From an uncultured Gammaproteobacteria bacterium (GTDB lineage Bacteria > Pseudomonadota > Gammaproteobacteria > Competibacterales > JAHEDQ01), in contig CAWAOU010000027.1 in NCBI GenBank assembly GCA_963783675.1, forward strand, positions 13,221 through 77,220: a stretch of 64,000 nt of DNA, written 5' to 3'. A model generated the notes under the pieces. It was not told the origin of the DNA. It searched no databases and was given only the letters and a program-made list of their open reading frames with translations. Both the position numbers and the translations under genes were made by a program. Each line of letters opens with the position of its first letter. The first letter of the stretch is position 1. Below are positions 5,253 to 63,627 of this stretch, piece after piece.

Positions 5253-5375
5253 CGCGGTGTCGAAGGGGTAGGTATCGCGAGTGATTAGCGTCACCTAACC
5301 AGTGTCCCGCGGTCCAGCCCATGCCCCAGTCAATTGTTCAGCTCTTGCCTGAGACCAAGCAACACCAGTTGCCCG

Positions 5376-5419
5376 TTTCGGCCTCTAATCTGCTTCGTCC
5401 GGAGTAACTCAGAGGCTCC
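5376..5419. repeat. partial copy (one-end module) of the dispersed structured repeat family
   Basis: tttcggcctctaatctgcttcgtccggagtaactcagaggctcc aligns with the end of the copy at 15812-15969 (tttcacccttcgatctgcttcatccagaacagatcagaggctcc). Confidence 0.4.
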
Positions 5420-6235: not shown

Positions 6236-6508
6236 CCTAGTGTCCCGTCCCATAAGTTCGTAGCGTTTCAGAGCGCCCCAGATACACCAATGCAAGGCGC
6301 AGGTGCGAAGGCATAGCCAGCTCTGTCAAGCAGCTGCAACGCCGCAGTGGCGTATCTGGGGCGCTCCCGACGGGCAAGGCGATAAGCGCCCATTCGCGGT
6401 GTTGGGCGCGCTTGAATGAGCGCAGGCTAGTCCTGCGCCCGCCCGCCTAGCGCCTGGGCGCTTCTCGCCTTGCTGATATGCAACGAACTTGTGGGACGGG
6501 ACACTAGG
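6236..6508. repeat. 273-bp MITE-like / highly structured element with 25-bp terminal inverted repeats
   Basis: cctagtgtcccgtcccataagttcg (6236-6260) is the reverse complement of cgaacttgtgggacgggacactagg (6484-6508) with 1 mismatch. There is an internal perfect 15-bp inverted repeat (6271-6285 / 6352-6366) and further 7-bp hairpins. No ORF. Confidence 0.65.
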
Positions 6509-7377: not shown

Positions 7378-8799
7378 TCATCCACGGACACTTTGATACG
7401 CCTCCAACGCAGACTGCCGGCTCATTTTCAGATCCACCAGCGGTGGCGGGTATCCTGATGGCGGTGAACCGTGAACCCAGGGCGCATGGCAAACGGCCGG
7501 TGCCTGGTCAGCCAGTTCGGGGATCCACCGCCTGATGTACCGACCCTCGGGATCGAATCGTTCGGCCTGTGTCACGGGATTGAATATCCGGTAGTAGGGC
7601 GCGGCGTCGGCACCGGTTCCCGCCACCCACTGCCACCCCATGGTGTTGCTGGCCAAATCGGCATCCACCAGCGTATCCCAAAACCAGCGCGCGCCCGCGA
7701 CCCACGGCACCCTGAGATTCTTGGTGAGAAAGGACGCGACCAGCATGCGAACCCGGTTGTGCATCCAGCCCGTCGCCCATAACTCCCGCATCCCGGCATC
7801 GACGATCGGGATGCCTGTCCGCCCCTGCTGCCAAGCCTCCAAATCCAACTCATGACCTTCACGCCAGGGGAAATCGACAAAACGCGGGTTCAGGGGCTGA
7901 TCGGGTGTGTCCGGGTAGTGAAACAGGAGATGATGCGCAAACTCACGCCAGCCGATCTCCGACAAGTAGCGTTCCGCACCCCCATGCCCCGAATCGAAGT
8001 CCGCTTGGCGTTCCAGGGCGTCCCGCAGTGACCAGAGTACTTGCCGTGGGCTGATCTCACCGAAATGCAGGTACGGCGACAGTCGTGAGGTACCCGCGGT
8101 CGAAGGAATGTCACGGCCGATCTCGTAGCCAGCCAAGGCCTGAGACAGGAAATCAGCAAGGTGGGCCTGGGCACCGATCTCGCCCGGCGTCCACATGGGA
8201 CGAAAATCGCTGTGCCAAGGGATTTTGGGCTCAAGTCCCAGCGCCGCCAGCTCTGTCTCGCGCTCGGCTTCGACAGTGAAATCCGTAAGTCGGCCAGGTG
8301 GCGCATGTGGTGCTTGCTCGGGCAACCTCGTGCGACACCATCGCCAGAACGGCGTGAACACCCGGTAGGGCCCCCCCGCCTTCTTGGTTGGCTGCCAAGG
8401 CTCGAACAGTAGATTTCCCGGATGACTCTCCACCGCTACGCCCACGTCGGACAACCCTGTCTTGATCTTGGTGTCGCGTTGGATCGTGGCGGGTTCATAG
8501 AGCCGATTCCAGTGCACCTCGTCCACATGAAAACGGCGAACCATCGACATCAATGTCGCCTGGGTCGGACCCTGTGCTATCAGCAGGTTACCCCCAAGCC
8601 TTCTCAGGGCCGCCTGCAGCGCCGCAAGGCTGTGATGAAGCCACCAGCGACTGGCCGCACCGGGTTCCCAGGGTGACTCCTCAGACGGTGAGTGGATGTA
8701 CACCATGACGACCCGCTCACAGTTTTGCAGAGCTGCTTGAAGCGCAGGATTGTCCGCCAGTCGCAGATCGCGCCGAAACCAGACCAATGCCGTTTTCAT
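7378..8799 (-). CDS. phrB: deoxyribodipyrimidine (CPD) photolyase, class I
   Basis: 473 aa. LVWFRRDLRLADNPAL N-terminus and TGIPIVDAGMRELWATGWMHNRVRMLVASFLTKNL FAD-binding signature. Confidence 0.9.
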   Translation of the reverse strand: MKTALVWFRRDLRLADNPALQAALQNCERVVMVYIHSPSEESPWEPGAASRWWLHHSLAALQAALRRLGGNLLIAQGPTQATLMSMVRRFHVDEVHWNRLYEPATIQRDTKIKTGLSDVGVAVESHPGNLLFEPWQPTKKAGGPYRVFTPFWRWCRTRLPEQAPHAPPGRLTDFTVEAERETELAALGLEPKIPWHSDFRPMWTPGEIGAQAHLADFLSQALAGYEIGRDIPSTAGTSRLSPYLHFGEISPRQVLWSLRDALERQADFDSGHGGAERYLSEIGWREFAHHLLFHYPDTPDQPLNPRFVDFPWREGHELDLEAWQQGRTGIPIVDAGMRELWATGWMHNRVRMLVASFLTKNLRVPWVAGARWFWDTLVDADLASNTMGWQWVAGTGADAAPYYRIFNPVTQAERFDPEGRYIRRWIPELADQAPAVCHAPWVHGSPPSGYPPPLVDLKMSRQSALEAYQSVRG

Positions 8800-15101: not shown

Positions 15102-15800
15102 ATGACCCCGAAACGATTTCTGCGACTACGGCAAGTCCTGGACAAAAGGCAACCCGATCTGACGGTGCTCACCGATCAGGTGCATAAACCGCACAACCTT
15201 GCGGCCATCTTGAGGACCTGCGATGCGGTGGGCATCATGACTGCACACGTGGTGCTTGAGAACACGCCCTACCGGTCCCGCCCCGGGACGTCGCTGGGCA
15301 GTGAGCGCTGGGTGGCGGTGGAGCCCCAGACTCGGATCGAGCATGCAATCCGACACCTGCATGACAGCGGGCACCAAGTGCTTGCCGCTCATTTTTCGCA
15401 GCGGGCAGTGGATTTTCGATCCCTGGACTACACCCGTCCGACGGCGCTGCTCCTGGGTGCAGAGAAACACGGTGTCAGCCAAACCGCCGCAACAGAAGCC
15501 GACGCCCATATTGTGGTGCCCATGATGGGCATGGTCGCTTCCTTCAACGTCTCCGTGGCCGCTGCAATCGTGCTAGCCGAAGCCCAACGGCAACGACAGA
15601 ACGCGGGTATGTACGATCGGGTTCGACTCGAACCCGATCGCTATAACGCCACGCTTTTCCGCTGGGCGCACCCGGTACTGGCAGAGTACTGCGATCGGCA
15701 TCACCTGGCCTATCCAGAGCTGTCCGACGAGGGTGATATTCTGGACCTCGCAGCCTGGAGACAGCGCACTGGGCAGACAGCTCGCATCTGTCCTCAGTGA
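15102..15800 (+). CDS. trmH: tRNA (guanosine-2'-O)-methyltransferase, SpoU/TrmH family
   Basis: RQPDLTVLTDQVHKPHNLAAILRTCDAVG and the C-terminal SpoU motifs (LLLGAEKHGVS, PMMGMVASFNVSVAAAI). Confidence 0.85.
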   Translation: MTPKRFLRLRQVLDKRQPDLTVLTDQVHKPHNLAAILRTCDAVGIMTAHVVLENTPYRSRPGTSLGSERWVAVEPQTRIEHAIRHLHDSGHQVLAAHFSQRAVDFRSLDYTRPTALLLGAEKHGVSQTAATEADAHIVVPMMGMVASFNVSVAAAIVLAEAQRQRQNAGMYDRVRLEPDRYNATLFRWAHPVLAEYCDRHHLAYPELSDEGDILDLAAWRQRTGQTARICPQ

Positions 15801-15811
15801 GCCTCCGATCG

Positions 15812-15969
15812 ATTCATGAACGTGCATCTTGGGACTCAAATGCACAGCTTCATCGTTGCAGATCTTGGCAACAGAACAACGATCACCCGCGATCTGCCCC
15901 GCGATCCGCCTCTTGAATCTGCACATTTCACCCTTCGATCTGCTTCATCCAGAACAGATCAGAGGCTCC
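15812..15969 (-). repeat. dispersed structured intergenic repeat, copy A (158 bp)
   Basis: Aligns over its full length with 19546-19681 and 33473-33605 (opposite orientation). Contains an extra 12-bp tandem duplication (ccgcgatctgcc / ccgcgatccgcc). The strand given is the one on which stems show G.U rather than A.C pairs. Confidence 0.75.
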
Positions 15970-19102: not shown

Positions 19103-19492
19103 TCAGCGATCGATCTGGCGTGGTCTTCGATCGACGCCAATGGCCACGTAGGTGAAAACGCCCTCGGTCACCTTGGCACGTTCGGATTGGCGCTCTGCCC
19201 GAATGGCCCAGGCCTGGATTCGGATGCTCATGGACGTCGTGCCAACCCGCTCGAGGTGAGCGTAACAGCACACCACGTCCCCAACGAACACGGGTTTGTG
19301 AAATATCATCCCGTCCACAGCGATGGTGGCCACCCGGCCCGCGGCCCGCTGCTTGGCCAGGATGCCACCGGCAATATCCATTTGCGCCAGCAACCAGCCC
19401 CCAAAAATGTCTCCGCTCGGATTGGTATCCGCCGGCATGGCCAGGGTTCTCAGCGTCAATTCGCCGATCGGTTCATCCGACTCAGAATTCAT
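19103..19492 (-). CDS. acyl-CoA thioesterase (YciA-like hotdog)
   Basis: LRTLAMPADTNPSGDIFGGWLLAQMDIAGG motif. Start ATG 19492 preceded by GGAG at 7 nt. Confidence 0.8.
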   Translation of the reverse strand: MNSESDEPIGELTLRTLAMPADTNPSGDIFGGWLLAQMDIAGGILAKQRAAGRVATIAVDGMIFHKPVFVGDVVCCYAHLERVGTTSMSIRIQAWAIRAERQSERAKVTEGVFTYVAIGVDRRPRQIDR

Positions 19493-19545
19493 GCATTGGC
19501 TCCAAATAATCCTCACCCCGGGCTCCACGCCCTGGGGAGCCGCTG

Positions 19546-19681
19546 ATTTATTCTGGGCGAAGCAGATTGGAGTCTGAAATGTGCAGATTCAAGGCGCAGA
19601 TTGCGGGTAATAGTTGCTCTATTGCCAAAATTTGCAACGATGAAGCTGTGCATTTCAGTCCCAAGATGCACGTTCACGAAT
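19546..19681 (+). repeat. dispersed structured intergenic repeat, copy B (136 bp)
   Basis: Full-length alignment to copies A and C. 13-bp outer stem 19574-19586 / 19646-19658 with two G.U-type pairs. Confidence 0.75.
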
Positions 19682-19773
19682 AGATCAGCGGTTCCCTAGG
19701 GCTACCCTAAACAACTGATGGGTAAATACAAGCTCACACCGGCGCTGCCAGGGTCGAGACCGAGTACGCATTT

Positions 19774-21219
19774 GTGAGCACGCTTTCGAACCATGCGGGC
19801 TTGAGCGATCTGGCGGCCTGTTTGCGCCGCGAACCACGTGCCGTCTATGACATTCTGGATCACATACTGGAACAACGCGCCGATGCCACCGATCCGGTCT
19901 CGCCATACACAGACTGGAGCGCCGTGCGGCTCGTGGCGTCGGCAGAATCCATCCGACATGCACTGAAATGCGGGAACCAGATCGGCCCGTTAAGCGGATT
20001 ACCAGTATCCATCAAAGACTTGTATGGATTGCCCGGCCTACACACCTATGCTGGAACGCCCAGACGCCTGCCGCCACAGTGGGAGACGGCGGGACCCATC
20101 GTAGCAGCGCTGATCAAACAGGGGGCATTGATCAGCGGCAAGACGTTGAGTGGGGAGTTGGCGCTGGGCGGTCTTGGCCTCAATCCCCACTGGGGAACGC
20201 CGTCCAACCCCTGGTCAAGGTTTGGGCGGCGGGTCCCGGGTGGTTCCAGCAGCGGCGCCGGGGCCAGCGTCGTCGAGGGTACTGCCTGGGCCGCGCTGGG
20301 CACCGATACTGGCGGCTCGGTCCGTGTCCCGGCCAGTTATCATGGTTTGGTCGGTCTGAAACTGACATACGGCCGCTGGCCCATGACGGGGGTTGTGCCG
20401 TTGGCCTCGATGTTCGACTCACCCGGTTTGCTCACCCGCACCGTAGACGATGCGGCGTACCTGTTCGCGTCCATTGACGCGGCCTTGGCGGGAGGCATCC
20501 AAAAGGCCTCACCGGTAGACCCGAGACCACTGGCAGGCTTGCGCATTGGAATCGGCTCTCCTCGGCTATGGGACGATTGCGATGCCACTATCCTGACCGT
20601 GTGCAATGATTTTTTGACCCAGCTTGGCGCGCTTGGGGTGCGGCTTATCGACGTCGCCTTTCCCGAATCGGTCAATGCGGCGCAGCATACCCGGGAACAC
20701 AGTTTCGTTGCCGCCGAATGCGAACAGTTCGTGCGCCTGGAACTGCCGGAGCTACGCACCCATCTGAGCCCGGCGACACTTAACATCCTGGCGGAAGGCG
20801 CGACCCTGCGAGACCGGGAAGTGCTGGCGCGGCAACGTCGCTTTGGACATCTGCTTCAGCGGGGCGTGACGGTGTTCGATCAGGTCGACCTGGTGGCCTG
20901 TCCAACAGTCCCGATACCCAGCCCAACCCTTGCGGAGGTCCAGGATTACGATCGGTACCGCATCCTCAACAGCGCCGCCCTGCGCAACACCGTGATCGCA
21001 AACCTGCTGGGTCTTTGTGCCTTGACCCTGCCCGTCGGATTCGACCGATACGGCCTGCCGGTGGGCCTTCAGTTGATGGCGCCAGCGGGCGCGGAAGCAA
21101 AGTTGCTATCGGCGGCACTGGCCATTGAAAAACGACTTGGCACACCCCTTGAAACCCTCGGGCGGCCCTCACCGATCAGCGCCACGGAGCACGCCCCTGA
21201 AAACTCAGTCAGACTTTGA
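19774..21219 (+). CDS. amidase (amidase-signature family, GatA-like)
   Basis: 481 aa. GGSSSGAGASV amidase-signature motif and Ser-cisSer-Lys context. Confidence 0.85.
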   Translation: MSTLSNHAGLSDLAACLRREPRAVYDILDHILEQRADATDPVSPYTDWSAVRLVASAESIRHALKCGNQIGPLSGLPVSIKDLYGLPGLHTYAGTPRRLPPQWETAGPIVAALIKQGALISGKTLSGELALGGLGLNPHWGTPSNPWSRFGRRVPGGSSSGAGASVVEGTAWAALGTDTGGSVRVPASYHGLVGLKLTYGRWPMTGVVPLASMFDSPGLLTRTVDDAAYLFASIDAALAGGIQKASPVDPRPLAGLRIGIGSPRLWDDCDATILTVCNDFLTQLGALGVRLIDVAFPESVNAAQHTREHSFVAAECEQFVRLELPELRTHLSPATLNILAEGATLRDREVLARQRRFGHLLQRGVTVFDQVDLVACPTVPIPSPTLAEVQDYDRYRILNSAALRNTVIANLLGLCALTLPVGFDRYGLPVGLQLMAPAGAEAKLLSAALAIEKRLGTPLETLGRPSPISATEHAPENSVRL

Positions 21220-28902: not shown

Positions 28903-29164
28903 GCCCCATAATCTCGGACACACCGAAAAAAAATAACAAGAGGCCCAGCATGATTTGCATCCAGTGTAGTGTCCCATAGGTTCGCTGTGTCTCAGCAAGG
29001 CGAGGAGCGGGCAGGCGCATTCAAGCGCGCCCAACATCGTAATCACACAGCCGATGACAGTGGCTGCCGCAGATAGCTGAGGTGCGGTTTGAGGTGGATA
29101 TCTGAGTTGTATCCGGCTCGATCAACAACCTTCCATGGTCCACCGTTTCACCCTCGGACCGACC

Positions 29165-33368: not shown

Positions 33369-33472
33369 CTTGGCTCCCCCACCCTGTTTGTGGCGGCATT
33401 TGGCTGCACCAATCCGGCTGCAGCGATTTGCCGTCCCTGACCCCGAACTTTAGTGCAGCCGGCGCCATTAAG

Positions 33473-33605
33473 GGGCCTCTGGTTTGTTCTGGGTGAAGCA
33501 GATTGGAGGGTGAAATCTACAGATTCAAGGCGCAGATCGCGTGTGACCGTCGGTCCATTGTCAGGATTTGCGACGACGAAGCTGTGCATTTGAGTCCCAA
33601 GATGC
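33473..33605 (+). repeat. dispersed structured intergenic repeat, copy C (133 bp)
   Basis: Aligns with copies A and B. More diverged in the central part and carries a compensatory C-G pair where A and B have U-A in the inner stem. Confidence 0.7.
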
Positions 33606-33822
33606 CCCCCACCAGCGGATCGGACCTTATCTAAACGCCACGGTACGCCGATCGCGAGCGGAGCGGACAGCAAACTGCCGGACCCACCGATCAGCCGCGT
33701 ATTGAATCCAGGCAATATATCCAATAGCCATACGCTCATTTCTCATTATTCTTTTTTGATCTGATGCGACCGCTATACAGTGACTCATCGAAATCGGTCA
33801 GCCGGCGGGGGTGGTCCAGCGC

Positions 33823-49249: not shown

Positions 49250-49254
49250 GATAG

Positions 49255-49817
49255 GAGTATAAGACGAACAAACGCCCTTTTCCGAAAGTTGATCGTGTAT
49301 CCCCAAGTCATCAAACAGTCGCCAAACCGCTTTTCAGTTTGGTGTCGGCCGTGATCGGCCCTTCTGGGCCGGCAGAAGCGGCCAAGATCGAGTAGTTCAG
49401 CCAATTTCTTAACGAATTCCCCGCATCGGGCCGAACGCGATCAAAGCCACAACGCTCAGCGTCGCAGTCGGGGGGTGTTACCGGGTAGCCCGGTTCAGTC
49501 GTCGAACCGTCCCGCCTGGGGCGGCGCCCGACACGGCGGCCGCCTCGTGGCTTGGGGCTCAACCGCTTTCGCATCCAGGTGGCTGAGGATCTTGTCGATG
49601 ACCTCCGGCTGCTCGATGCAGGCGATAATCCGCACCGCCCCACCGCAGGCCCGGCAGGTCTCAACGTCGATACCGAACACCCGCTTCAGACGCTGCGCCC
49701 AGGTCATTGAGGCGCGGCGTTCGGCCGGCGTCGCCTCCTCCCCATCCCCCGTCGCAGCACGCTGGCCTCCCCTGCCACGCTTGGCCGGTGTCACCCGCGC
49801 GCGGTATTTGCTGTTCG
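49255..49817 (-). mobile_element. IS91-family 3' (oriIS-proximal) fragment, copy 1 (563 bp)
   Basis: Near-identical to 59213-59775 and 62901-63463. Encodes only the last about 108 aa of the transposase (NSKYRARVTPAKR...). Ends exactly after an internal GTTC (ctgttcg) at 49817. Confidence 0.85.
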
Positions 49818-50279: not shown

Positions 50280-51521
50280 GCGTTGCCTCATATCTTAGGT
50301 AACCGAAAGGAGACCAGGATATGGGCAAGAACGAGAGGCAGGCCTACCTGAAGGAGATCCGCTCTCGCTACCGGCGTTCCGGCCGCCAAGCGAAGGGTCG
50401 CATTCTGGACGAGTTCTGTGCCGTATGCGGCTACCATCGAAAGTACGCCATCCGGCTTTTGCACCGACCTTTGAAGCGGGCTCGGCGGCGCATCGGCCGC
50501 CCGCCGGTGTATGGCTCCAAGGAGCTGCTCACGGCGCTGAAACGGATCTGGTTCGCCACCGACCAGATGTGCTCGAAGAGACTGGTGGCGGTGTTGCCTC
50601 TGTGGTTGCCGTTTTACCGTGATGCCTACGAGCCTCTCAGCCCCGAGACCGAGCAGCAACTTCGCACCCTCAGCGCCGCCACCATCGATCGGCTGCTCAA
50701 AGCCCACCGCGTGCGGGCCGGCAAGGGCCGCTGCACCACCAAGCCCGGCACGTTGCTCAAGAACCAGATCCCGATCCGGACCGATCACTGGGACGTGCGC
50801 GAGCCCGGTTTTGTCGAGGCCGACACCGTTGCCCACTGCGGCAACAGCCTGGCCGGGGATTTCATCTGGTCGCTGACCCTGACCGACATCAACAGCGGCT
50901 GGACCGAGAACCGCGCCACTTGGAACCATGGCGCCCAGGGCGTCGTCACTCAGATCCGCGACATCGAAGCGCGCCTGCCCTTCGCCCTGCAGGGCTTCGA
51001 TTGCGACAACGGCTCGGAGTTTCTCAACTACCATCTGCTGCGCTACTTCACCAAACAGCGCGACAAACCCGTGCCCTTCACCCGTTCGCGCCCTTACCAC
51101 AAAAACGACAACGCCCACGTGGAACAGAAGAACTGGTCACACGTGCGCCAACTCTTTGGCTATGATCGACTTGAAAGACGCGAACTGCTGAGTCTGATGA
51201 ATGCGCTCTACGCCAATCACTGGTCGGCCTACCAGAACCACTTCTGCCCGACGCTCAAGCTGCTGGAGAAAACGCGTATCAACTCCAAATACCGCAAACG
51301 CTATGAGCCACCGAAAACACCCTATCAGCGCCTGCTCGAGTCAGAACACATCAGCGCTGAGGCTAAGGCTCAGCTTCGCACCGTCCACCAATCACTCAAC
51401 CCGTTCGAACTCAAACGCGCCATCGAACAGAAACTACGGGCAATCTTTAAGATCGTGAAAGTAACCACCAATGTGAGGCAACGTCTCTGACCTTCGGTAA
51501 CCTTTAGCAATGAGGCAACGC
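50280..51521 (+). mobile_element. 1.24-kb insertion sequence with DDE (integrase-core) transposase; family uncertain (ISNCY-like?)
   Basis: Terminal inverted repeats GCGTTGCCTCAT...AGGTaACCGAA (50280-) and the reverse complement at 51521 (12 of 12 terminal bp identical). There is an extra subterminal copy of tgaggcaacg at 51473-51482. It bounds a single ORF. Confidence 0.75.
50321..51490 (+). CDS. DDE-type transposase (rve/integrase core domain)
   Basis: 389 aa. Candidate DDE triad in FVEADTV, FDCDNGSEF and NAHVEQKNW. N-terminal HTH-like region. Confidence 0.8.
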   Translation: MGKNERQAYLKEIRSRYRRSGRQAKGRILDEFCAVCGYHRKYAIRLLHRPLKRARRRIGRPPVYGSKELLTALKRIWFATDQMCSKRLVAVLPLWLPFYRDAYEPLSPETEQQLRTLSAATIDRLLKAHRVRAGKGRCTTKPGTLLKNQIPIRTDHWDVREPGFVEADTVAHCGNSLAGDFIWSLTLTDINSGWTENRATWNHGAQGVVTQIRDIEARLPFALQGFDCDNGSEFLNYHLLRYFTKQRDKPVPFTRSRPYHKNDNAHVEQKNWSHVRQLFGYDRLERRELLSLMNALYANHWSAYQNHFCPTLKLLEKTRINSKYRKRYEPPKTPYQRLLESEHISAEAKAQLRTVHQSLNPFELKRAIEQKLRAIFKIVKVTTNVRQRL

Positions 51522-59212: not shown

Positions 59213-60745
59213 GAGTATAAGACGAACAAACGCCCTTTTCCGAAAGTTGATCGTGTATCCCCAAGTCATCAAACAGTTGCCAAACCGCGTTTCAGTTTGG
59301 TGTCGGCCGTGATCGGCCCTTCTGGGCCGGCAGAAGCGGCCAAGATCGAGTAGTTCAGCCAATTTCTTAACGAATTCCCCGCATCGGGCCGAACGCGATC
59401 AAAGCCACAACGCTCAGCGTCGCAGTCGGGGGGTGTTACCGGGTAGCCCGGTTCAGTCGTCGAACCGTCCCGCCTGGGGCGGCGCCCGACACGGCGGCCG
59501 CCTCGTGGCTTGGGGCTCAACCGCTTTCGCATCCAGGTGGCTGAGGATCTTGTCGATGACCTCCGGCTGCTCGATGCAGGCGATAATCCGCACCGCCCCA
59601 CCGCAGGCCCGGCAGGTCTCAACGTCGATACCGAACACCCGCTTCAGACGCTGCGCCCAGGTCATTGAGGCGCGGCGTTCGGCCGGCGTCGCCTCCTCCC
59701 CATCCCCCGTCGCAGCACGCTGGCCTCCCCTGCCACGCTTGGCCGGTGTCACCCGCGCGCGGTATTTGCTGTTCGGCGCAAACACCCCGTGGAAACGGGT
59801 CAGATTGACTCTCGGTTTCGGCACCAAAGCGGCCAGCCGGGCAATGAAATCCAGCGGCTCGAACATCACATGCGTAGTACCGTCGCGGTACGGGGTCTTC
59901 AGCTGGTAACGAACGTTCCCATTCGCCGTGAGCGACAGGCGCTTTTCCGACACCGCCGGGCGGCTGATGTAGCGGCACAGCCGCTCCAGCTTCCCTCTTT
60001 CATCCGCTCTCGCCGCCACGCCCGCGTGCAGCGAGAAACCGGCCACCTTGCCCACCCCGTCATCGAACCGATCATCGCAGGCCGGCAGCGTCCGTAGCGT
60101 GAATACCTTGCGCCCCTGCTGCGGCCCGACAGCGATGCGGTAGGTGATCGACGAACCCAGGAGTTGATGCATAGGCCCGGCCTCGAAGTGGTCGCCGGCC
60201 AGATAGCAGTTCTCCGCATCGCGCTCCAGCAGCCCCTGCCGTTCGAGGTAGCGGCCGATACGCAGCGCCAGGGTCTGCGCCAGCCGGCTGAGTTCGGTGC
60301 TCGTCGGCGCCTTCACCCAGCGGAATCGGAGCGAGCCGTCCGAGCCCTCCACGTACACCCCATCGAGGAACAGCATGTGAAAGTGGATGTTCAGGTTCAG
60401 CGCGCTGCCGAAGCGCTGGATCAGCGTGACCGCGCCGCTCCGGGCCGTCTTGCAGGAAAAACCGGCCTTCTTGGTCAGGTGTGTGGCGATGCAACGGTAG
60501 ACGATGCCCAGCACCCGGCCCATAACAGCAGGGCGGCTGGCGAACAGGAAACGTAAGGGATACGGAACGCTCAACACCCACTGGCGCACCGGCTGCTCGG
60601 CAAACACCTCGTCCACCAGCAATGCCGCGCTCTCGGCCATGCGCCGGGCACCGCAGCTGGGACAAAAGCCCCGGCGTTTGCAACTGAACGCCACCCATTG
60701 ATCGCCATGGCAACTGTCGCAGCGCAGCACCACGTGCCCTGCAAA
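59213..60745 (-). mobile_element. IS91-family element, copy 2 (oriIS end intact, 5'/terIS side missing)
   Basis: Left boundary GAGTATAAGACGAAC is shared with copies 1 and 3. The right boundary is approximate, where the transposase frame merges with a truncated dehydrogenase gene. Confidence 0.8.
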
Positions 60746-60781
60746 GCTGGACGACTCCTGATCCAACGCCTCCGGAGGCAC
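59453..60781 (-). CDS. IS91-family (Y2/HUH rolling-circle) transposase, N-terminally truncated
   Basis: VLRCDSCHGDQWVAFSCKRRGFCPSCGARRMAESAALLVDEV zinc-binding region and the rest of the IS91-type core. The usual about 55 N-terminal residues preceding this motif are absent. Confidence 0.85.
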   Translation of the reverse strand: MPPEALDQESSSFAGHVVLRCDSCHGDQWVAFSCKRRGFCPSCGARRMAESAALLVDEVFAEQPVRQWVLSVPYPLRFLFASRPAVMGRVLGIVYRCIATHLTKKAGFSCKTARSGAVTLIQRFGSALNLNIHFHMLFLDGVYVEGSDGSLRFRWVKAPTSTELSRLAQTLALRIGRYLERQGLLERDAENCYLAGDHFEAGPMHQLLGSSITYRIAVGPQQGRKVFTLRTLPACDDRFDDGVGKVAGFSLHAGVAARADERGKLERLCRYISRPAVSEKRLSLTANGNVRYQLKTPYRDGTTHVMFEPLDFIARLAALVPKPRVNLTRFHGVFAPNSKYRARVTPAKRGRGGQRAATGDGEEATPAERRASMTWAQRLKRVFGIDVETCRACGGAVRIIACIEQPEVIDKILSHLDAKAVEPQATRRPPCRAPPQAGRFDD

Positions 60782-61403: not shown

Positions 61404-62312
61404 CTACCCCGTCTCCACGGACGGTTTTAAAATGGCTGAAAACTTCTGATCTTGTGCAGCAACTCTACGCCGCATTCTGGAATTGTGAAATCGCTCAATG
61501 TAGTCGAACACATCAGCCCTGGCTTCATTCCGGGTGCGGTACCGGCGATGGTGAATCCTTTCGCGTTTGAGTACCCCGAAGAATCCCTCACACGCGGCGT
61601 TGTCGCCGCAATGACCTACAGCACTCATACTGCTGATCAAAGTGTTCTGCCCCAGGAACCGCTGGTAGTCGCCGCTAGTGAATTGGCAGCCTCGATCGGA
61701 ATGTAAAATCACCTTTGTGGCCTCCTGGCGCTGCCAGATAGCCATCTCAACCGCTCGAATGACCATGTGCCGATCCTGTCGATGATGCATCGCCCAGCCA
61801 ATGACAAGCTTGCTGAACAGGTCGAGAACGACGCACAGAAACAGCTTCCCTTCTAATGTCTTGATCTCCGTGATGTCAGTGACCCATTTGCTTTCCGGCT
61901 CCAATGCCGTGAAGTCCCGGCGCAGATGATTCTCAACGCCCGCGGGACGCATACTGGAACCTTTCCAGCGCTTGGGCTTTTTCCGTGGCCAGCCTTGTAT
62001 GTTGTGAGATGCCATCAGGCGTGCAACACGGTTCAAACTGGCTGTCTCACCCTCGGCAGCCAAATCCTCGTGCATACGCGGCGCACCAATTACGCCACCA
62101 CTGTCGTCGTGGATCTCGCGTATGCGTACCAGCAGACGCGCATTGTCCGATTCACGAGGACTCGGCTTGCGTGATACCCAAGCGTAATACCCGCTGGATG
62201 AAACATTCAGGCAGCGGCACATAAGACGAACAGGAAAATCATCGCGACAACGTTGGATCGCCTGATACCTCAGGACGATTCCTTCGCAAAGAACGTTGCC
62301 GCTTCGCGTAAA
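61404..62312 (-). CDS. IS3-family transposase OrfB (DDE), expressed by -1 frameshift from OrfA
   Basis: [30 protein letters not shown]...[10 protein letters not shown]...[16 protein letters not shown]. The -1 frame is open back to a T TTT TTA heptamer at 62309-62315. The ORF-track ATG is at 62222. Confidence 0.85.
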
Positions 62313-62900: not shown

Positions 62901-63627
62901 GAGTATAAGACGAACAAACGCCCTTTTCCGAAAGTTGATCGTGTATCCCCAAGTCATCAAACAGTCGCCAAACCGCTTTTCAGTTTGGTGTCGGCCGTGA
63001 TCGGCCCTTCTGGGCCGGCAGAAGCGGCCAAGATCGAGTAGTTCAGCCAATTTCTTAACGAATTCCCCGCATCGGGCCGAACGCGATCAAAGCCGCAACG
63101 CTCAGCGTCGCAGTCGGGGGGTGTTACCGGGTAGCCCGGTTCAGTCGTCGAACCGTCCCGCCTGGGGCGGCGCCCGACACGGCGGCCGCCTCGTGGCTTG
63201 GGGCTCAACCGCTTTCGCATCCAGGTGGCTGAGGATCTTGTCGATGACCTCCGGCTGCTCGATGCAGGCGATAATCCGCACCGCCCCACCGCAGGCCCGG
63301 CAGGTCTCAACGTCGATACCGAACACCCGCTTCAGACGCTGCGCCCAGGTCATTGAGGCGCGGCGTTCGGCCGGCGTCGCCTCCTCCCCATCCCCCGTCG
63401 CAGCACGCTGGCCTCCCCTGCCACGCTTGGCCGGTGTCACCCGCGCGCGGGATTTGCTGTTCGGCGCAAACACCCCGTGGAAACGGGTCAGATTGACTCT
63501 CGGTCTGGGCACCAGGGCCGCCAGCCGGGCAATGAAATCGAGGGGTTCAAAGATGACGTGCGTCGTACCGTCGCGGTACGGGGTCTTCAGCTGGTAACGA
63601 ACGTTCCCATTCGCGGTGAGCGACAGG
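62901..63627 (-). mobile_element. IS91-family 3' fragment, copy 3 (727 bp, mosaic)
   Basis: 62901-63450 is near-identical to copies 1 and 2. 63451-63627 aligns with copy 2 with about 15 substitutions, mostly silent in the transposase frame. Homology ends at 63627. Confidence 0.8.

What the first reader, a model, noticed from the sequence alone, without database searches (positions are those of the whole stretch)
19546..19681. Repeat copy B: 13-bp long-range stem whose imperfections are G.U-type on one strand only
In copy B, ctgaaatgtgcag (19574-19586) pairs with ctgtgcatttcag (19646-19658) over all 13 positions if two T-G juxtapositions are read as G.U wobbles. On the opposite strand the same positions would be A.C mismatches. 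The same arrangement is present in copy A, on its minus strand. This asymmetry is the signature expected of a transcribed RNA structure rather than a DNA cruciform. It assigns a sense strand: plus for B and C, minus for A. Copy B lies in the divergent spacer between the yciA-like gene and the amidase, 93 bp upstream of the amidase start.
Basis: seen in the sequence. Interest (0 to 1): 0.6.

Follow-up and report, generated by a model that had tools for sequence, protein, structure and literature searches.

The report
Mobile hairpin repeat (MITE), not RNA gene
The 13-bp stem is one segment of a 160-bp mobile palindromic repeat (a MITE) that recently jumped into this spacer; its G·U strand bias is real but inherited from the family's founder, with no sign that this copy is a selected RNA.

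Summary
The stem exists exactly as described, but it is only part of a hairpin of about 66 pairs that spans a 160-bp element (window 19536-19695). The element has terminal inverted repeats GGAGCC…GGYTCC and a 4-bp YTAR target-site duplication. At least 102 distinct copies were found in related MAGs and metagenomes. Near-identical strains have the same spacer without copy B (117 vs 281 nt), so it is a mobile MITE, probably moved by an IS5-type transposase. No such partner was found.

The strand asymmetry is real and family-wide. The consensus RNA folds at -94 kcal/mol on one strand and -72 on the other, and 99 of 102 copies favour the same strand. Of 13 non-Watson-Crick positions in the founder, 12 put a G on that strand.

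Three results argue against an RNA under selection:
- Later substitutions are unbiased: 56 G·U-type vs 51 A·C-type events, and 16 vs 16 among private ones.
- Orientation relative to neighbouring genes is random (20 vs 20).
- There is no promoter, terminator or Rfam match, and the bias also holds with ssDNA parameters.

Verdict: a new member of a known kind (ERIC/Correia-like bacterial MITE). If transcribed it would form a long dsRNA hairpin, more stable in one orientation. Nothing shows that copy B is a functional RNA.

The parts
19536..19695 (+). Copy B of the MITE (160 nt, GGAGCCGCTGATTTATTC…GAATAGATCAGCGGTTCC). It folds end to end into one hairpin.
   Evidence: It is absent from the same spacer in sister strains. 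It is 94% identical to the family consensus.
19532..19535 (.). Left copy of the 4-bp target-site duplication (CTGG, a decayed CTAG/YTAR).
19696..19699 (.). Right copy of the 4-bp target-site duplication (CTAG).
   Evidence: The empty site reads CCC-GA-GGG at this point.
19574..19586 (+). 5' arm of the 13-bp stem named in the finding (a segment of the long hairpin).
19646..19658 (+). 3' arm of the 13-bp stem named in the finding.
15798..15969 (-). Copy A (172 nt). It belongs to the 175-nt-type sub-family with a 12-nt tandem duplication in the left arm. It sits between convergent SpoU-methylase and SLT-transglycosylase genes and is present in all sister contigs.
33472..33630 (+). Copy C, an old copy (79% to consensus) with a degenerate right end. 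It lies in the divergent spacer between a CBS-domain gene and the sulfite reductase gene and is fixed in all sister contigs.
5328..5419 (-). Copy D, a decayed left half of the element.
19103..19492 (-). Neighbouring 4HBT (YciA-like) thioesterase gene. Its start lies 43 nt from the element's left end.
   Evidence: PF03061, 1.7e-17.
19774..21219 (+). Neighbouring amidase gene. Its start lies 78 nt from the element's right end.
   Evidence: PF01425.

Best explanation
Copy B is one insertion of a non-autonomous transposable element, a MITE. It is 160 bp long, has about 19-bp terminal inverted repeats, and is an imperfect palindrome over its whole length. It inserts at YTAR (mostly CTAG) tetranucleotides and duplicates them. 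This is the target signature of IS5-group DDE transposases, so it is most likely moved in trans by such an enzyme encoded elsewhere in the genome (inferred; no partner was found).

Copy B entered the 117-bp divergent promoter spacer between the thioesterase and amidase genes recently, and the site is still polymorphic among strains.

The G·U/G·A strand bias is a property of the family's founder sequence that every copy inherits. Dispersed copies then decay neutrally. If RNA polymerase reads through a copy, the transcript would fold into a hairpin of about 66 pairs. That hairpin is about 20 kcal/mol more stable in one orientation and is a plausible RNase III substrate, as in Correia and ERIC elements. 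This is a by-product, and nothing shows it is selected at this locus.

Shown: element structure, copy number, target duplication, insertion polymorphism, inherited asymmetry, lack of later bias and lack of orientation bias.
Inferred: the IS5-type partner and any effect on RNA.
For: - Repeat family: 4 copies in the window, 23 full copies in two MAGs, and 143 full copies at 102 unique loci after the metagenome scan.
- TIRs and ends.
- Empty vs filled site with an identical amidase protein: 117 vs 281 nt, +164 nt.
- Second filled/empty case: a copy nested inside another MITE at a CTAG.
- YTAR on both flanks, with the outer positions matching between left and right in 58/78 and 64/78 loci, against about 40 and 35 expected. 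IS5 makes YTAR duplications (PMC5009759).
- No coding signal: 74/79/74 changes per codon position, with frameshifts in several copies.
- All copies are intergenic.
- Age structure: polymorphic B is 94% identical to the consensus, fixed C is 79%.
- Conservation is uniform along the arm that was not used to find the copies.
- Asymmetry is inherited: consensus -94.0 vs -71.8 kcal/mol, and 99/102 copies favour the same strand.
- Later changes are unbiased and orientation is unbiased.
- Known bacterial MITEs share all of these traits (PMC2229807, PMC10969869).
Against: - No autonomous IS with matching TIRs was found in the window or in 1.3 Mb of harvested DNA. The transposases in the window are IS91- and IS3-type.
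- The founder's bias is stronger than a symmetric null predicts: 12 of 13 non-WC positions carry G on one strand (p about 0.003, a post hoc test). The four highest-copy derived variants are all G·U-type (MWU p = 0.15). Some strand-specific constraint on source copies therefore cannot be excluded.
- Gene orientation was judged with a crude GC3-based ORF caller.
- No transcript data were available.
Confidence: 0.85

Rival explanations
1. One reading: the repeat is a structured RNA (an sRNA or cis-regulatory RNA) with a defined sense strand, kept by selection at the RNA level.
For: The plus-strand RNA fold is far more stable. The non-WC positions are G·U and G·A, which RNA tolerates. B and C are co-oriented with the downstream gene.
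Against: - It has TIRs, a target duplication and an empty site, so it is a transposon.
- Later substitutions show no G·U over A·C excess.
- Orientation relative to genes is 20:20.
- There is no promoter, terminator or Rfam hit.
- Double changes do not exceed the slid control.
- The asymmetry also holds for ssDNA.
- B and C sit in divergent spacers, where co-orientation with one neighbour is automatic.
Confidence: 0.05
2. The element spreads through a single-stranded intermediate: an ssDNA hairpin (as in IS200/IS605-type or HUH-mediated systems, or lagging-strand extrusion) or an RNA copy. Source copies would then be selected to fold on one particular strand, which would explain the founder's G-rich mismatches.
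For: In the founder, 12 of 13 non-WC juxtapositions carry G on one strand. ssDNA folding is equally asymmetric. The highest-copy variants are G·U-type whereas private variants are unbiased. An IS91-family (rolling-circle, ssDNA) transposase is present in the window.
Against: - Long TIRs plus a 4-bp YTAR duplication are the footprint of a DDE cut-and-paste enzyme (IS5-type). IS200/IS605 and IS91 elements make neither TIRs nor such duplications.
- The founder-vs-private contrast is not significant (Fisher p about 0.11).
- Counting G·U vs A·C alone, the founder is 6-7 vs 1 (p = 0.07-0.13).
Confidence: 0.08
3. The repeats have been adopted by the host as REP/BIME-like elements (mRNA stabilisers, terminators or binding sites for nucleoid proteins), and the hairpin is kept for that role.
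For: All copies are intergenic. The hairpin is very stable. ERIC and Correia elements are documented to affect mRNA stability.
Against: - Conservation is uniform, with unbiased disruptive changes: 143 'other' events vs 24 compensatory ones.
- Copy B is present or absent among near-identical strains.
- There is no T-run after the stem.
- At 160 bp with no GTAG/CGTC head, it does not fit REP elements (sequence; abstract).
Confidence: 0.05

Closest known systems
ERIC / IRU (enterobacterial repetitive intergenic consensus) MITEs
   Same: About 130-170 bp, intergenic, and an imperfect palindrome over the full length. TIRs and TA-containing termini. An open frame through the element. Transcripts fold into long stem-loops whose effect depends on orientation (PMC2229807).
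   Different: No sequence similarity: a blastn search of 5,426 E. coli genomes found nothing. The host lineage differs (Competibacteraceae-like MAGs). The duplication is a 4-bp YTAR. No RNase E effect or orientation effect has been shown here.
Correia / NEMIS elements of Neisseria
   Same: A 100-155 bp MITE with TIRs and a TA-centred target duplication. Hundreds of copies, often next to promoters. The hairpin RNA is cut by RNase III when co-transcribed (PMC10969869, PMC2229807).
   Different: Different TIR sequence and host. No IHF site or outward promoter was detected. RNase III processing has not been tested.
IS5-group insertion sequences (DDE transposases)
   Same: A 4-bp target-site duplication with consensus 5'-YTAR-3' (vs PMC5009759). 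The ends begin with GG(A).
   Different: No transposase gene lies inside the element, and no full-length IS with these TIRs was found. The link rests on the target signature alone.
YPAL / RU-2 palindromic elements of Yersinia
   Same: About 165-170 bp repeats that fold as a single long hairpin, with target duplication and open frames (PMC2229807, Table 1).
   Different: YPAL is listed without classical TIRs and without terminal TA. No sequence relationship was tested directly.

Membership tests
Bacterial MITE (non-autonomous class II element) | Small size (under about 300 bp) and no coding capacity | tested here: met
   160-175 nt. The only open frame (antisense) shows no codon-position signal (74/79/74 events) and is frame-shifted in several copies.
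Bacterial MITE (non-autonomous class II element) | Terminal inverted repeats | tested here: met
   GGAGCCTCTGATTTATTC … GAATAGATCAGAGGCTCC in the consensus and in most copies.
Bacterial MITE (non-autonomous class II element) | Target-site duplication flanking the element | tested here: met
   YTAR on both sides, with left and right copies matching at the outer positions in 58/78 and 64/78 loci. Two filled/empty comparisons agree.
Bacterial MITE (non-autonomous class II element) | Many dispersed copies, and presence/absence between close strains | tested here: met
Copy B is absent in L019, L020, L024 and L025, which encode an identical amidase.
Bacterial MITE (non-autonomous class II element) | A related autonomous IS with matching TIRs | tested here: inconclusive
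   None was found in the window or in 1.3 Mb of harvested loci. Only fragments of the host genomes were available.
IS5-group-mobilised element | 4-bp duplication of a YTAR target | tested here: met
   The reference pattern for IS5 comes from PMC5009759.
IS5-group-mobilised element | TIRs shared with an IS5-family transposase-bearing element | tested here: inconclusive
   No partner was found. The window's transposases are Y2_Tnp (IS91) and rve (IS3) types.
Structured non-coding RNA gene or cis-regulatory RNA | Match to a curated RNA family | tested here: not met
   Rfam at gathering thresholds gave 0 hits in the window. A search at E<=10 around copy B gave only a noise hit outside the element.
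Structured non-coding RNA gene or cis-regulatory RNA | Strand-specific evolutionary support (G·U-type and compensatory changes exceeding A·C-type changes) | tested here: not met
   56 vs 51 events (p = 0.70), and 16 vs 16 among private events. Double changes are similar on both strands (18 vs 16 pairs) and fall within the slid-control range on 102 copies.
Structured non-coding RNA gene or cis-regulatory RNA | Own transcription signals, or a consistent orientation relative to host transcription | tested here: not met
   No promoter-like or terminator-like site in 19400-19850. Orientation is 20 same vs 20 opposite in co-directional contexts.
Structured non-coding RNA gene or cis-regulatory RNA | A detectable strand-specific transcript | not testable with these tools
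   No expression data are available.
ERIC / IRU | Sequence similarity to the ERIC consensus | tested here: not met
   No blastn match (word size 11, E<=0.01) in 5,426 complete E. coli genomes, which carry ERIC copies.
REP / BIME | A 20-40 bp palindrome with a GTAG or CGTC head, associated with RAYT | tested here: not met
   The element is 160 bp, begins GGAGCC and carries a target duplication. The REP definition is taken from the PMC3733652 abstract.
IS200/IS605-derived PATE | No TIRs and no target duplication; subterminal hairpins instead | tested here: not met
   TIRs and a 4-bp duplication are present. The family definition is from general knowledge.

The most novel reading that the evidence does not exclude
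The founder's one-sided mismatches (12 of 13 non-Watson-Crick positions carry G on one strand) and the G·U character of the highest-copy sub-family variants, set against unbiased private mutations, may mean that selection acts on source copies to fold on one specific strand. That would imply that this YTAR-targeting MITE, and perhaps IS5-type MITEs in general, depends on a single-stranded hairpin intermediate (ssDNA or RNA) for mobilisation or for regulating its transposase.
Probability: 0.08. Interest if true: 0.6.

Novelty: new member of a known kind. Interest (0 to 1): 0.25.

Why it matters
- It replaces a candidate RNA gene with a simpler reading: an undescribed MITE family in Competibacteraceae-like Gammaproteobacteria from wastewater and sediment. 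No match was found in Rfam, in plasmids or in E. coli genomes.
- The family is recently active. Copy B is polymorphic in a divergent promoter spacer, so filled and empty strains form a natural experiment on how a 160-bp hairpin insertion affects two neighbouring genes.
- It is a caution for genome scans. G·U asymmetry shared by the copies of a repeat is a single inherited observation, not replicated evidence of RNA selection.
- The founder-level bias is a small open question about how fully palindromic MITEs arise and spread.

Tried and rejected
- Small protein on the antisense strand (MNVHLGTEMHSFIVA…). The frame is open through the consensus, but there is no codon-position signal, several copies are frame-shifted, and there is no stop inside the element. 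Rejected.
- Known RNA family. Rfam at gathering and permissive thresholds found nothing.
- Intrinsic terminator or promoter carried by the element. None was detected around copy B.
- Autonomous partner. I looked for TIR pairs 0.6-3 kb apart, orphan TIRs and half-copies. These turned up only truncated or internally deleted copies, plus one shorter element sharing the TIR (L044:4659). The window's D1 repeats are IS91 transposase fragments without these TIRs.
- TA (2-bp, IS630/mariner-type) duplication. I considered this first. The left/right correlation of the outer Y and R positions favours a 4-bp YTAR.
- Similarity to annotated plasmid or E. coli sequence. None.
- A second empty site at copy C. 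All sister contigs carry the copy.
- RNAalifold consensus. It was too conservative (33 and 18 pairs), so I used the fold of the consensus sequence as an explicit structure.
- The apparent GC/AU covariation at the outermost pair is target-site sequence (CTAG vs TTAA), not RNA covariation.

Full report
OBSERVATION. The sequence at 19574-19586 (CTGAAATGTGCAG) pairs with 19646-19658 (CTGTGCATTTCAG) over 13 positions. That is 11 Watson-Crick pairs plus an adjacent U·G/G·U tandem, which would be A·C/C·A on the other strand. It is only a fragment of the real feature, though. RNA folding of 19530-19705 gives a single hairpin that pairs the two ends of the region. Its energy is -103.6 kcal/mol on the plus strand (z = -11.75) and -68.8 on the minus strand.

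WHAT THE UNIT IS. BLAST and repeat searches inside the window find the same roughly 165-nt sequence at 15796-15969 (minus) and 33472-33605 (plus), and a decayed left half at 5328-5419 (minus). Copy B is also about 70% self-complementary. A degenerate left-arm pattern hits all four copies and none by chance.

The same pattern found 18 loci in the genome collection: 17 in a Candidatus Competibacteraceae MAG (Ww208) and one in another proteobacterial MAG. A profile search of the harvested DNA gave 143 full-length copies at 102 distinct loci, with median identity to the consensus of 94%.

Alignment with flanks shows sharp ends, GGAGCCTCTGATTTATTC … GAATAGATCAGAGGCTCC. These are terminal inverted repeats.

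MOBILITY AND TARGET SITE. A look-up of the exact amidase protein returned sister contigs of two kinds. Some have the window's 281-nt thioesterase-amidase spacer. Others, including NCBI GCA_942492415.1, have a 117-nt spacer. Their alignment shows a clean 164-nt difference. The empty site reads …CCACA-CCC-GA-GGGCTACC… and the filled site reads …CCACG-CCCTGG[GGAGCC…GGTTCC]CTAGGGCTACC….

Across 78 loci with intact ends, both flanks read Y-T-A-R directly outside the element. The outer Y and R positions agree between the left and right copies in 58 and 64 of the 78 loci, where about 40 and 35 are expected; an offset control gives 15-25. The duplication is therefore 4 bp, YTAR, most often CTAG.

A second filled/empty pair came from a nested insertion. 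In L038 and L106, a copy of another 273-bp MITE family is split by this element at a CTAG that is intact in other copies. The window itself carries a copy of that second family at 6236-6508.

IS5 is documented to make 5'-YTAR-3' duplications (PMC5009759), so an IS5-group transposase is the likely mobiliser. None with matching ends was found in the window or in 1.3 Mb of harvested DNA. The window's transposase genes are IS91 (Y2_Tnp) and IS3 (rve) types.

Copy C (79% to consensus) is present in all sister contigs, while copy B (94%) is polymorphic. This fits old and young insertions.

THE STRAND ASYMMETRY. The asymmetry is real and family-wide. The 102-locus consensus folds at -94.0 kcal/mol on one strand and -71.8 on the other. 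Individual copies average -76.5 vs -55.4, and 99 of 102 favour the same strand.

In the 23-copy founder consensus, the 72 hairpin juxtapositions are 59 WC, 7 G·U, 5 purine·purine (G·A or G·G) and 1 A·C. So 12 of the 13 non-WC positions place a G on the 'sense' strand. The binomial p is about 0.003 for G-type vs C-type, a post hoc grouping, and 0.07-0.13 for G·U vs A·C alone.

Every copy inherits this pattern, so copies A, B and C are not independent evidence.

TESTS FOR RNA-LEVEL SELECTION.
(a) Substitutions relative to the consensus at WC pairs. G·U-type changes keep pairing only on the sense strand, and A·C-type changes keep it only on the antisense strand. There are 56 vs 51 distinct events (p = 0.70), 16 vs 16 among events private to one copy, and 40 vs 36 after removing the pairs covered by the search pattern. 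The 23-copy set gave 42 vs 32 (p = 0.30). Disruptive changes dominate: 143 'other' events against 24 compensatory ones.
(b) Formal pair counts on 23 copies. The sense strand has 89.3% of cells paired and 18 pairs with double changes (shuffle mean 8.0). The antisense strand has 87.3% and 16 (shuffle mean 8.5). On 102 copies, 92.1% of cells are paired and 29 pairs show double changes, against a shuffle mean of 14.0. The slid-partner controls, which keep relatedness, give 23-32. Of the 63 double-change cells, 23 lie in the outermost pair, which is target-site sequence (CTAG vs TTAA).
(c) Orientation. With a simple GC3-based gene caller, copies that lie between co-directional genes have the sense strand on the transcribed strand 20 times and on the other strand 20 times. 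There are 18 divergent and 10 convergent contexts, and no copy lies inside a gene. The 23-copy set gave 7 vs 8. B and C are in divergent spacers and A in a convergent one, so their 'sense' assignment cannot be checked against context.
(d) There is no promoter-like or terminator-like site around copy B and no Rfam family match.
(e) With DNA parameters the same strand is favoured, -27.9 vs -16.6 kcal/mol. The bias therefore does not separate RNA from single-stranded DNA.
(f) Conservation along the right arm, which was not used to find the copies, is roughly uniform at 0.88-0.94.

A residual hint remains. The four most frequent derived variants (46, 19, 18 and 13 copies) are all G·U-type, while the most frequent A·C-type variant has 8 copies. 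This is not significant (MWU p = 0.15), and the largest of them is a G·U/G-C toggle whose ancestral state is unclear.

OTHER READINGS TESTED. An antisense frame is open across the consensus (…VNVHLGTEMHSFIVANLGNRTTITRDLRLESAHFTLQSASSRINQRLP). Changes are spread evenly over codon positions (74/79/74), there are 59 synonymous against 168 non-synonymous changes, several copies are frame-shifted, and the frame has no stop inside the element. Open frames are a known, incidental trait of bacterial MITEs (PMC2229807).

COMPARISON WITH KNOWN ELEMENTS. Reviews describe bacterial MITEs (Correia/NEMIS, ERIC/IRU, RUP, YPAL) as 100-200 bp elements bounded by TIRs and flanked by TA. [quoted passage not shown] Correia transcripts are processed by RNase III. 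ERIC shows an RNase E effect that depends on orientation (PMC2229807 and PMC10969869).

The present family meets the class definition on every feature that could be tested except the unidentified autonomous partner. It has no sequence similarity to E. coli genomes, which carry ERIC, or to plasmids. It is therefore a new family of a known kind.

MECHANISM AND CONFIDENCE. Most likely (about 0.8-0.9): a MITE moved in trans by a DDE transposase that targets YTAR. My confidence that the transposase is IS5-group is about 0.6. Copy B is a recent insertion 43 nt from the thioesterase start and 78 nt from the amidase start. Any RNA hairpin is a by-product of read-through transcription, more stable in one orientation. 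It might affect mRNA processing as in Correia or ERIC, but nothing shows selection at this locus. The founder's one-sided mismatches remain mildly unexplained. They could be chance, strand-biased mutation in the source copy, or a constraint on single-strand folding of source copies. The last is the novel reading, at probability about 0.08.

LIMITS.
- No expression data were available.
- Gene calls for the orientation test are heuristic.
- Copies were found through a left-arm pattern; this was controlled by excluding those pairs.
- The host genomes are fragmentary, so failing to find a partner IS is weak evidence.
- The host taxon of the window is inferred only from sharing the family with Competibacteraceae MAGs.

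Noticed in passing
window 6236-6508 (TIR remnant at 28963-29018); L038:5113-5544; L106:235-666: A second, unrelated MITE family. It is 273 bp with 36-nt TIRs (TGTCCCGTCCCATAAGTTCG…), is bounded by CTAG, has an RNA MFE of -186 kcal/mol, and has many copies in the same metagenomes. In L038 and L106 one copy is interrupted by the element studied here (a nested insertion).
   Followed up: partly
window 15798-15969 and many loci (e.g. L043, L082, L142): An abundant 175-nt sub-family carries a 12-nt tandem duplication (GGGGCGGATCGC-like) in the left arm. This makes an asymmetric bulge in the hairpin. Copy A belongs to this sub-family.
   Followed up: partly
L121:8250-8424 and 8426-8588: Two copies of the MITE, one from each sub-family, lie head to tail with 1 nt between them.
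   Followed up: no
window 59453-60781 (-), 49251-49817, 62901-63627, 61404-62222 (-), 50321-51490 (+): A cluster of other mobile-element genes: an IS91-family Y2 transposase (Pfam Y2_Tnp 1.7e-35) with two further 97-99% identical 3' fragments, an IS3-type OrfB (rve), and a weak rve-like ORF. None carries the MITE's terminal repeats.
   Followed up: partly
window copy B; L083, L136, L071: A small sub-family has a matched change in both terminal repeats (GCCTCTGA…TCAGAGGC becomes GCCGCTGA…TCAGCGGT). It also carries the GG-to-TC change that makes the 13-bp stem of the finding perfect at its outer end. This could reflect a need for matching ends for the transposase rather than RNA pairing.
   Followed up: no
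L044:4659-4770: A shorter sequence begins with the same terminal repeat (GGAGCCTTTGATTTATTC) and follows a TTAG, but continues differently. It may be a related short element.
   Followed up: no
L004:6948-7055; L016:3061-3135; L076:264-395: Internally deleted derivatives of the MITE (about 75-130 nt) that keep both ends.
   Followed up: no
window 19480-19530 vs L019:9871-9920: The filled and empty haplotypes differ at 5 of about 50 positions on the thioesterase side of the insertion point but at only 1 of about 85 on the amidase side. The amidase protein is identical. This may be a recombination breakpoint at or near the insertion.
   Followed up: no
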